Source of the DNA: a virus
Lineage: Duplodnaviria > Heunggongvirae > Uroviricota > Caudoviricetes
Length of the DNA stretch: 51,038 nt
Reading direction: 5' to 3' (one strand)
Virus record (IMG/VR): IMGVR_UViG_2778261009_000008
Location: 1-51,038 of that record
This document shows positions 36,113 through 36,487 of this stretch, piece after piece (positions within the stretch are counted from its first letter, which is position 1; each line of letters begins with the position of its first letter). Under the pieces are notes generated by a model. That model worked only from the letters and a program-made list of their open reading frames with translations, searched no databases and was not told where the DNA came from. Position numbers and translations under genes: made by a program.

Positions 36113-36487
36113 ATGAAAAAGGATCTGAAAACGCTGGCGCTGGCCAGACTGTCAGGGTTTCGTCATAAAACGGTGAAGGTGCCGGAATGGGGTAATGTCA
36201 GCGTGGTGCTGCGGGAGCCTTCGGCAGAGGCCTGGTATCTGTGGCAGGAAGTGCTCAATGGTGATGGAGAGGATGACGATACCCTGTCGGTGGTGGCGAA
36301 AACCCGCCGTAACCTGGAAGCGGATGTGACGCTGTTCTGCGATGTCCTGTGTGATACGGATCTGCAGCGGGTGTTCACTCCGGACGACCGTGAGCAGGTG
36401 CTGGCCGTCTATGGTCCGGTACATGCCAGGTTGCTGCGTCAGGCACTGGAACTGATCGCTGATGCAGAGTCGGCCAGAAAAAAGTAG
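36113..36487 (+). CDS. Tail assembly chaperone G
   Basis: About 124 aa from MKKDLKTL…; ends …ESARKK* with the slippery heptamer A_AAA_AAG (36478-36484) at its 3' end. Confidence 0.75.
   Translation: MKKDLKTLALARLSGFRHKTVKVPEWGNVSVVLREPSAEAWYLWQEVLNGDGEDDDTLSVVAKTRRNLEADVTLFCDVLCDTDLQRVFTPDDREQVLAVYGPVHARLLRQALELIADAESARKK

What the first reader, a model, noticed from the sequence alone, without database searches (positions are those of the whole stretch)
36478..36484. Tail chaperone programmed -1 frameshift site A_AAA_AAG
The G-like ORF ends …AGA AAA AAG TAG, placing the classic slippery heptamer in the zero frame immediately before the stop, and the -1 frame is open for about 100 further codons. 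This is the conserved G/GT arrangement and confirms the tail module is organised for function.
Basis: partly seen in the sequence, partly recalled or inferred. Interest (0 to 1): 0.25.

Follow-up and report, generated by a model that had tools for sequence, protein, structure and literature searches.

The report
Phage tail chaperone G/GT frameshift site
This is the well-known ribosomal slip site that lets a lambda/HK97-type prophage of E. coli make a short and a long tail-assembly chaperone from one gene; it is real and conserved but ordinary, and only the database annotation misses it.

Summary
AAAAAAG lies at 36478-36484 in phase A_AAA_AAG. It forms the last two sense codons of a 124-aa ORF (36113-36487), is followed directly by TAG, and the -1 frame stays open for 102 more codons to 36792.

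The upstream ORF is a full-length HK97 gp13-type tail assembly chaperone (Pfam PF06222; PDB 2OB9, E 5e-46). The -1 extension is a lambda-T domain (PF06223). The pair sits between the major tail gene and the tape measure gene.

In 51 of 53 divergent Enterobacterales homologues (44-64% identity) the -1 extension is kept. Amino-acid conservation and codon periodicity switch frame exactly at the slip point. The ATG that databases use as the "T" start has no Shine-Dalgarno and is not conserved.

HK97 gp14 is already annotated as a -1 frameshift product, and HK97-like cassettes gave 6-7% frameshifting in published reporter assays.

Verdict: a genuine programmed -1 frameshift giving G (14 kDa) and GT (25 kDa), already known as a kind and as a family. 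The locus is about 99% identical to sequences in over 1,200 complete E. coli genomes. The claim that it "confirms" a functional tail module goes too far. Low interest.

The parts
36113..36487 (+). Gene G: tail assembly chaperone, 124 aa, 14.0 kDa, zero-frame product ending ...ESARKK-stop
   Evidence: PF06222 Phage_TAC_1 at 1e-61, covering 1-124 of 124. phrog_344. PDB 2OB9 (HK97 gp13) at E 4.7e-46. PGAP annotates the same coordinates in a 99.9% identical relative. Shine-Dalgarno AAGGGGA, -8.4 kcal/mol.
36478..36484 (+). Slippery heptamer A_AAA_AAG (P-site AAA, A-site AAG)
   Evidence: Read directly. It is the only in-phase X_XXY_YYZ in the overlap. It is intact in 79 of the 80 near-identical viral loci (the 80th was mis-anchored and not assessed). 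The same motif sits at the homologous position in 31 of 51 intact divergent loci.
36485..36487 (+). Zero-frame stop TAG directly 3' of the heptamer; ends G and may slow the ribosome at the slip site
   Evidence: A stop directly follows the AAG in 35 of 51 intact homologues, including all 10 that lack a canonical heptamer. A stimulatory role is inferred, not shown.
36463..36487 (+). 25-nt window in which both frames are open; a -1 shift must occur here to give GT
   Evidence: The last -1-frame stop upstream is TGA 36460-62.
36484..36792 (+). T segment in the -1 frame: 102 codons plus TGA, read only after the shift. GT is 226 aa, 25.4 kDa, with junction ...SARKK|VARPEIRFLM...
   Evidence: PF06223 Phage_tail_T at 6e-19. 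phrog_337, and phrog_14766, a 224-position profile spanning both halves. Lambda T and the HK97 T segment hit the same Pfam model. Amino-acid conservation and third-position variability in this frame begin at the slip point.
36511..36513 (+). ATG used by PGAP and phage records as the start of a stand-alone 93-aa 'tail assembly protein T'; probably an internal Met of GT
   Evidence: Annotation in relatives. Shine-Dalgarno pairing is only -3.5 kcal/mol at spacing 12, against -6.6 to -10.7 for neighbouring real starts. The Met is replaced by Leu in L103, L110, L127 and L134, and the Pro and Phe upstream of it are conserved.
35382..36098 (+). Major tail subunit with a C-terminal Ig-like domain (upstream neighbour)
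   Evidence: phrog_158 at 3e-116. Pfam Ig_3/Ig_2/I-set above their cut-offs; Phage_TTP_11 (24.4 bits) and Phage_tail_2 (22.7 bits) fall just below theirs. PGAP name 'major tail subunit'.
36840..40082 (+). Tape measure protein, 1080 aa (downstream neighbour; expected binding partner of the G domain)
   Evidence: PF06120, PF20155 and PF09718. phrog_339.

Best explanation
A programmed -1 ribosomal frameshift of the lambda G/GT type, in the HK97 gp13/gp14 family, in a lambdoid E. coli prophage. Most ribosomes translate gene G (36113-36487) to the TAG and release the 124-aa chaperone. A small fraction slip back one base on A_AAA_AAG (36478-36484). E. coli's single tRNA-Lys pairs better with AAA than with AAG, so the tRNAs on AAA-AAG re-pair on AAA-AAA. 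The next codon read is GTA (36484-86) and translation runs on to 36792, giving the 226-aa GT fusion. By analogy with lambda, the G domains coat the tape measure protein and the T domain recruits the major tail subunit. A high G:GT ratio is needed for tails of correct length, and neither protein stays in the virion.

Shown here: the sequence anatomy, family membership of both halves, synteny, and comparative evidence that the coding frame switches at this exact point. Inferred: that the shift occurs, that its efficiency is a few percent, and the binding roles.
For: Anatomy.

Family: PF06222 full length and PF06223; a PHROG profile covering the fusion; PDB 2OB9, HK97 gp13, at E 5e-46; lambda T and the HK97 T segment in the same Pfam family.

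Synteny: major tail, G, T, tape measure, then M, L, K, I, J.

Conservation: the -1 extension of 92-103 codons is kept in 51 of 53 loci at 44-64% identity across many Enterobacterales genera, while the +1 frame is short. It is also kept in HK97-like, Klebsiella, Proteus and Burkholderia phages, where every full-length tblastn hit is in two frames. An in-phase A_AAG lies at a fixed 32 nt (35 nt in the G_GGA_AAG group) before the conserved LALRLGR motif, wherever G's stop falls.

Frame switch: the T-frame peptide aligns from K-K-V onward and is junk upstream. Mean entropy by codon position is 0.80/0.99/1.37 in the G frame before the slip and 0.90/0.71/1.36 in the -1 frame after it. That includes codons before the annotated ATG, for example Pro at 0/0.14/1.88.

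No independent start: weak Shine-Dalgarno and a non-conserved Met.

Precedent: HK97 gp14 (NP_037707) is annotated 'translated due to a -1 frameshift'. Two cassettes from an HK97-like tail chaperone cluster gave 6-7% frameshifting in E. coli reporters (PMC3711429). Lambda G:GT is about 30:1 and A_AAA_AAG is highly shift-prone in E. coli (PMC5009743).
Against: There is no protein-level evidence for this locus. The heptamer is common in the window (10 copies), so the sequence alone would be weak evidence. No upstream Shine-Dalgarno-like stimulator was found (-3.0 kcal/mol, weaker than 76% of random windows). No convincing downstream structure was found (z -0.91 with dinucleotide shuffles; family mean z -0.66), so efficiency cannot be predicted. 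Re-initiation at ATG 36511 after termination at TAG, 24 nt upstream, cannot be excluded as an extra minor route. Whether the prophage still makes tails is unknown.
Confidence: 0.9

Rival explanations
1. Two independent genes, as the databases annotate them. T would be a free 93-aa protein initiated at ATG 36511, possibly by termination-reinitiation after the G stop, and the heptamer would be incidental.
For: PGAP and several phage records annotate separate 'phage tail assembly chaperone' and 'phage tail assembly protein T' CDSs. The exact 93-aa protein is recorded on 699 contigs, while the fusion is absent from the collection. The ATG lies only 24 nt past the G stop.
Against: The Shine-Dalgarno pairing is no better than at a random site. 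The Met is Leu in four homologues. Residues upstream of it (Pro, Phe) are conserved with third-position wobble in the -1 frame. Conservation begins at the slip point rather than at the ATG. The HK97 homologue is annotated as a frameshift fusion, and reporter assays on this cluster show a fusion product.
Confidence: 0.04
2. The same product by a different slip mechanism. A single tRNA-Lys would slip on A_AAG in the P site while the adjacent stop codon sits unread in the A site (termination pause), instead of tandem P/A-site slippage on the full heptamer.
For: A_AAG is the only element invariant across the family. Fifteen of 51 intact loci, and HK97 itself, lack a canonical heptamer (GCA_AAG, GTA_AAG, GAA_AAG). 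All 10 loci with GCA/GTA_AAG have the stop directly adjacent, and the stop is adjacent in 35 of 51 overall. Z_ZZN, and A_AAG in particular, is the minimal -1 site in E. coli (PMC5009743).
Against: Sixteen of 51 loci have the stop 3-24 nt further on and still keep the arrangement, so the stop is not required. In this window the full heptamer is present, and tandem slippage is the better-documented route. The two routes give the same protein, so sequence data cannot separate them.
Confidence: 0.25
3. Transcriptional slippage. RNA polymerase would add an A in the A-run, giving an mRNA subpopulation that encodes GT in one frame.
For: Homopolymeric A runs can cause polymerase slippage, and some homologues have runs of 8 A (for example L088, L092-L097).
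Against: The run here is only 6 A. Productive transcriptional slippage is reported for runs of about 8-9 or more (PMC3711429). Many family members have no run at all (GCA AAG, G_GGA_AAG) yet keep the arrangement.
Confidence: 0.02
4. An inherited but currently idle signal. The prophage would be defective, so the site is kept only by recent common descent and does nothing in this host.
For: The portal gene of this prophage is split by a G5/G6 run difference, and PGAP labels it a frameshifted pseudogene in relatives. Many E. coli lambdoid prophages are cryptic (general knowledge).
Against: All tail genes are present at full Pfam or PHROG coverage. The G/T region is 97-99% identical to that of phage records named as Stx-converting phages. 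The split portal form is found on many diverged backgrounds, which argues against simple decay. This rival concerns present activity, not what the element is.
Confidence: 0.1

Closest known systems
Phage HK97 gp13/gp14 (tail assembly chaperone and its -1 frameshift extension; NP_037708/NP_037707; structure PDB 2OB9)
   Same: Same Pfam families for both halves (PF06222 + PF06223). About 60% identity over the whole fusion for HK97-like phages, and 63% for G alone against HK97. Same position between the major tail and tape measure genes, and the same junction position relative to the LALR(L/M)GR motif.
   Different: HK97 slips on a non-canonical G_GAA_AAG, with G continuing 5 codons to TAA. The window has the canonical A_AAA_AAG with the stop directly adjacent. 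HK97 also has a moron (gp15) between T and the tape measure gene that the window lacks.
Phage lambda gpG/gpGT (Levin, Hendrix and Casjens 1993; Xu, Hendrix and Duda 2004, 2013, 2014; cited from PMC5009743)
   Same: Same logic and gene order. The T domain is in the same Pfam family (PF06223). It is a low-efficiency -1 shift ending on AAG with no strong stimulator evident.
   Different: Lambda G belongs to a different chaperone family (PF06894). Its heptamer is G_GGA_AAG, 6 codons before the G stop. Lambda T is longer (144 aa) and shows no pairwise BLASTP similarity to this T segment.
E. coli dnaX gamma/tau frameshift cassette
   Same: An identical heptamer, A_AAA_AAG, relying on the single E. 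coli tRNA-Lys (PMC5009743).
   Different: dnaX has an upstream Shine-Dalgarno-like element and a downstream hairpin that raise efficiency to about 50%. Neither is detectable here. In dnaX the shifted frame ends quickly, so the frameshift product is the shorter one. Here the shifted frame adds a 102-residue domain.

Membership tests
Tail assembly chaperone G/GT programmed -1 frameshift (lambda paradigm, Xu et al. 2004) | Two overlapping ORFs located between the major tail protein gene and the tape measure gene | tested here: met
   Major tail 35382-36098, G 36113-36487, T frame to 36792, tape measure 36840-40082.
Tail assembly chaperone G/GT programmed -1 frameshift (lambda paradigm, Xu et al. 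2004) | The downstream ORF is in the -1 frame and lacks its own conserved start and ribosome-binding site | tested here: met
   -1 relationship. Shine-Dalgarno -3.5 kcal/mol against -6.6 to -10.7 for real starts. The Met is not conserved and the coding signal extends upstream of it.
Tail assembly chaperone G/GT programmed -1 frameshift (lambda paradigm, Xu et al. 2004) | An in-phase slippery sequence inside the overlap of the two frames | tested here: met
   A_AAA_AAG at 36478-84 is the only in-phase heptamer in the 25-nt overlap.
Tail assembly chaperone G/GT programmed -1 frameshift (lambda paradigm, Xu et al. 2004) | The arrangement is conserved in divergent homologues | tested here: met
   51 of 53 genome loci at 44-64% identity. 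Two-frame hits in HK97-like, Klebsiella, Proteus and Burkholderia phages.
Tail assembly chaperone G/GT programmed -1 frameshift (lambda paradigm, Xu et al. 2004) | G and GT are both made, with G in large excess, and both are needed for tail assembly | not testable with these tools
   This needs protein detection and genetics. There is only indirect precedent: 6-7% in reporters for HK97-like cassettes (PMC3711429) and about 30:1 in lambda (PMC5009743).
HK97 gp13/gp14 family (Pfam PF06222 Phage_TAC_1 + PF06223 Phage_tail_T) | The G half matches PF06222 above the gathering score over its full length | tested here: met
   206.7 bits against a cut-off of 25, covering 1-124 of 124. HK97 gp13 itself scores 203.3 bits. 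PDB 2OB9 at E 4.7e-46.
HK97 gp13/gp14 family (Pfam PF06222 Phage_TAC_1 + PF06223 Phage_tail_T) | The -1 extension matches PF06223 above the gathering score | tested here: met
   68.7 bits against a cut-off of 25.9. The HK97 extension scores 73.4 bits and lambda T 54.1 bits.
dnaX-type stimulated frameshift cassette | An upstream Shine-Dalgarno-like stimulator about 10 nt 5' of the heptamer | tested here: not met
   The best anti-SD duplex in the 25 nt upstream is -3.0 kcal/mol, and 76% of random windows do at least as well.
dnaX-type stimulated frameshift cassette | A stable hairpin or pseudoknot 5-9 nt 3' of the heptamer | tested here: inconclusive
   The 123-nt fold has z -0.91. The 60-nt fold has z about -2 with mononucleotide shuffles, with a family mean of -0.66 and 4 of 48 below -2. 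The strongest hairpin (about 36519-36538) starts about 35 nt downstream and encodes the conserved LALRLGR motif.
Transcriptional slippage site | A homopolymer run of about 8-9 or more A/T | tested here: not met
   The run is 6 A (36478-36483).

The most novel reading that the evidence does not exclude
In the HK97-type chaperone family the true core signal may be the A_AAG tetramer and not a heptamer, with a directly adjacent stop codon compensating where the P-site codon cannot re-pair. All 10 loci with GCA/GTA_AAG have the stop adjacent. This would be a natural series in which termination pausing replaces tandem slippage to set the G:GT ratio. The window's A_AAA_AAG-TAG would then carry both devices.
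Probability: 0.3. Interest if true: 0.3.

Novelty: already known. Interest (0 to 1): 0.1.

Why it matters
Biologically it matters little beyond confirming that this prophage keeps the standard device for setting the ratio of its two tail chaperones. In practice, PGAP and most phage records annotate the T segment as a free 93-aa protein starting at an internal Met. The true 226-aa product is missing from a 15-billion-protein collection even though the locus occurs in about a quarter of complete E. coli genomes. A slippage join, as in the HK97 record, would be the correct annotation.

Tried and rejected
(1) The first viral-contig scan with the G protein returned 80 loci at 98-100% identity. These only showed that the heptamer is intact and were useless for conservation. 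I switched to an alignment-based scan of genome contigs.

(2) Downstream RNA structure as a stimulator: not significant.

(3) Upstream Shine-Dalgarno-like stimulator: absent.

(4) Pairwise BLASTP of the T segment against lambda T found no alignment. The relationship is visible only through the Pfam profile.

(5) NCBIfam gave no hit for either half.

(6) I searched the supplements of PMC3711429 to learn which two cassettes were tested, and found nothing in the held text. It is therefore unknown whether this exact sequence was assayed.

(7) I examined database proteins that look like single-ORF G-T fusions (P0001, P0002, P0004, P0101). Each comes from one contig. They are explained by an 11-nt deletion, by one-base indels in the A-run, or by garbled reading, so they are not evidence for a natural fused gene.

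(8) I did not predict a structure. It would not bear on whether the shift occurs, and homologue fusions rebuilt from loci cannot be submitted.

(9) The ORF start at 36065 was rejected in favour of 36113.

Full report
OBSERVATION. The window reads ...GCC AGA AAA AAG TAG CCC... The heptamer AAAAAAG is at 36478-36484, in phase A_AAA_AAG relative to the ORF that ends with TAG at 36485-36487. The -1 frame has its last upstream stop at 36460-62 and then stays open to TGA 36790-92. That is 102 sense codons counted from G36484. The +1 frame closes after 44 codons.

The real G start is probably ATG 36113, giving 124 aa, and not the first ATG at 36065. It has the better Shine-Dalgarno, the Pfam match begins at its Met, and PGAP uses it in a 99.9% identical relative.

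IS IT MORE THAN CHANCE? Taken alone, no. AAAAAAG occurs 10 times on the + strand against about 3 expected, and 20 of 63 + strand ORFs have a -1 frame open for at least 80 codons past their stop, because phage genes overlap. But the two frames overlap for only 25 nt here, which leaves 6 in-phase heptamer positions. At the window's own frequencies that gives about 0.001 expected AAAAAAG and about 0.04 expected heptamers of any X_XXY_YYZ kind. It is the only one present. The real weight comes from homology and comparison.

WHAT THE TWO HALVES ARE. The 124-aa protein matches Pfam PF06222 (Phage_TAC_1) end to end at 1e-61. The -1 extension matches PF06223 (Phage_tail_T) at 6e-19. One PHROG profile of 224 positions (phrog_14766) covers both halves in order, so fusions of this kind are already in phage databases. 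The G half aligns over its full length to PDB 2OB9, the HK97 gp13 tail assembly chaperone, at E 4.7e-46. HK97 gp13 and its extension, and lambda T, hit the same models. Lambda G belongs to a different chaperone family, PF06894. Pairwise BLASTP of this T segment against lambda T finds nothing, so the link to lambda T exists only at profile level.

CONTEXT. The pair lies between a major tail subunit with an Ig-like C-terminus (35382-36098) and a 1080-aa tape measure protein (36840-40082). Homologues of M, L, K, I and J follow. The window is a lambdoid E. coli prophage with integrase, exonuclease, replication, methyltransferase, lysis, terminase, protease-capsid and portal genes. The G/T stretch is at least 95% identical to sequences in 92 phage records, mostly Stx-converting phages. 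It is at least 90% identical, and at least 95% in nearly all, to sequences in 1,246 of 5,426 complete E. coli genomes.

COMPARATIVE TEST. A profile scan of one genome per species gave 53 loci at 44-64% identity, from Enterobacter, Klebsiella, Morganella, Proteus, Providencia, Xenorhabdus, Pantoea, Serratia, Pectobacterium and other genera.

In 51 of these loci a -1 extension of 92-103 codons follows G, while the +1 frame is short. The two exceptions (L121, L123) are disrupted, one of them in an insect-symbiont genome. The -1 frame peptides align from K-K-V...P...FLM-LALRLGRT onward, and what precedes this in the -1 frame is unalignable or closed.

An in-phase A_AAG sits 32 nt (35 nt in one subgroup) before the LALRLGR codons in every intact locus, whether G's stop is adjacent or up to 24 nt further on.

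Codon periodicity switches at that point. Before it, the most variable position is the third base of the G frame (mean entropies 0.80/0.99/1.37). After it, the most variable position is the third base of the -1 frame (0.90/0.71/1.36). This already holds in the 11 codons that precede or include the annotated ATG. Examples are Pro CCN at 0/0.14/1.88 and Phe at 0.14/0/1.00.

THE ANNOTATED 'T' START. PGAP and most phage records give T as a separate CDS from ATG 36511. That ATG has anti-SD pairing of only -3.5 kcal/mol at spacing 12, comparable to a random in-gene ATG, against -6.6 to -10.7 for the neighbouring genes. The Met is Leu in four homologues. The exact 226-aa fusion is absent from a 15-billion-protein collection, while the 124-aa and 93-aa pieces are each recorded on hundreds of contigs or more. 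The HK97 record, by contrast, annotates gp14 as a two-piece CDS 'translated due to a -1 frameshift'.

MECHANISM. E. coli has one tRNA-Lys, and its modified U34 pairs better with AAA than with AAG. A_AAG is the minimal -1 site, and A_AAA_AAG is among the most shift-prone heptamers (PMC5009743).

I found no upstream Shine-Dalgarno-like element. Downstream folding shows only a weak, non-significant tendency, and that stretch encodes the most conserved T motif, which confounds the signal. The cassette therefore looks like lambda's: a heptamer with little else, giving a low-percent shift.

Published numbers for comparison are about 30:1 G:GT in lambda (PMC5009743) and 6-7% in GST-MBP reporters for two cassettes from an HK97-like tail chaperone cluster (PMC3711429). 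I could not establish whether this exact sequence was one of those tested.

The stop directly after the heptamer may add a termination pause. It is adjacent in 35 of 51 intact loci, and in all 10 whose P-site codon (GCA or GTA) cannot re-pair. That role is an inference.

The run of 6 A is too short for efficient transcriptional slippage.

The functional roles are carried over from lambda, not tested here: G binding the tape measure protein, T recruiting the major tail subunit, and both leaving before tail completion.

FAMILY VARIATION. Among the 51 intact loci the slip motif is A_AAA_AAG in 31, G_GGA_AAG (lambda's motif) in 5, G/A_GAA_AAG (HK97's own) in 5, and GCA/GTA_AAG in 10. The invariant part is therefore A_AAG.

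KNOWN OR NEW. Both the kind (Levin 1993; Xu 2004; as cited in PMC5009743 and PMC3711429) and this protein family (HK97 gp13/gp14) are established. The sequence itself is widespread. The finding is a correct recognition of a textbook element. Its only practical value is to point out a systematic annotation gap.

The slip site does not 'confirm' a functional module. The tail genes all look intact. However, the prophage's portal is split into ORFs of 454 and 407 aa by a G5 run where single-ORF versions have G6. Both forms are common: 56 against 41 viral contigs. G5 occurs on many diverged backgrounds, so it may be tolerated, but this is unresolved.

Noticed in passing
window 31264-33848 (G-run about 32609-32613; ORF1 stop 32626-28; ORF2 ATG 32625): The portal gene is split into a 454-aa ORF (complete Pfam Phage_portal domain) and a 407-aa ORF in the -1 frame with an ATGA overlap. 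Other E. coli prophages encode one 861-aa protein (phrog_2271 has 859 positions). The only cause is a G5 run where the fused form has G6. PGAP labels the G5 form a 'frameshifted' pseudogene. Yet G5 is found in 56 and G6 in 41 IMG/VR contigs, and G5 sits on many diverged flanking haplotypes; only 3 haplotypes show both states. It could be a tolerated two-protein arrangement, a second recoding site (a -1 slip on G_GGG would restore the fused sequence), or an old, widespread defect.
   Followed up: partly
window 36511-36792 and relatives (L001, L002, L003): There is a systematic annotation gap. T is annotated as a stand-alone 93-aa protein from an internal Met. The 226-aa GT fusion is absent from a 15-billion-protein collection, while the two pieces are each recorded on hundreds of contigs or more. 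HK97's record has the correct slippage join.
   Followed up: yes
L084-L136, L142 (HK97): Fifteen of 51 intact homologous loci, and HK97 itself, have no canonical X_XXY_YYZ heptamer at the homologous slip position: GCA_AAG or GTA_AAG in Klebsiella, Raoultella, Pantoea and Erwinia, and GAA_AAG in HK97, Enterobacter and Kosakonia. All 10 GCA/GTA_AAG loci have the stop codon directly after AAG. In L109 the frames overlap for only 10 nt, which leaves A_AAG as the sole possible slip site.
   Followed up: partly
P0001, P0002, P0004 (database proteins); L121, L123: A few single-contig variants encode G and T in one frame. P0001 has an 11-nt deletion removing TAGCCCGCCCG. P0004 and P0002 have one-base changes in the A-run, probably homopolymer sequencing errors. 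Two genome loci (Serratia sp. L9 and Ca. Symbiopectobacterium endolongispinus) have a disrupted arrangement.
   Followed up: partly
window 18337-20443: tRNA-Met and tRNA-Arg genes are followed by three tandem copies of the sRNA family STnc100 (RF02076, 121-172 bits), just upstream of a 662-aa ORF (20663-22651; PGAP names its counterpart in the relative a SASA-family esterase). This looks like the late-region slot downstream of the tRNA genes where Stx-converting phages carry stx (my recollection, not checked here). No stxA-sized ORF is present there.
   Followed up: no
L143 24525-25688 (NZ_CP027586 relative) vs window 40416-40389: The closest annotated relative carries an ompC porin gene inserted between the tail genes M and L. 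The window has M and L directly adjacent, with no insert.
   Followed up: no
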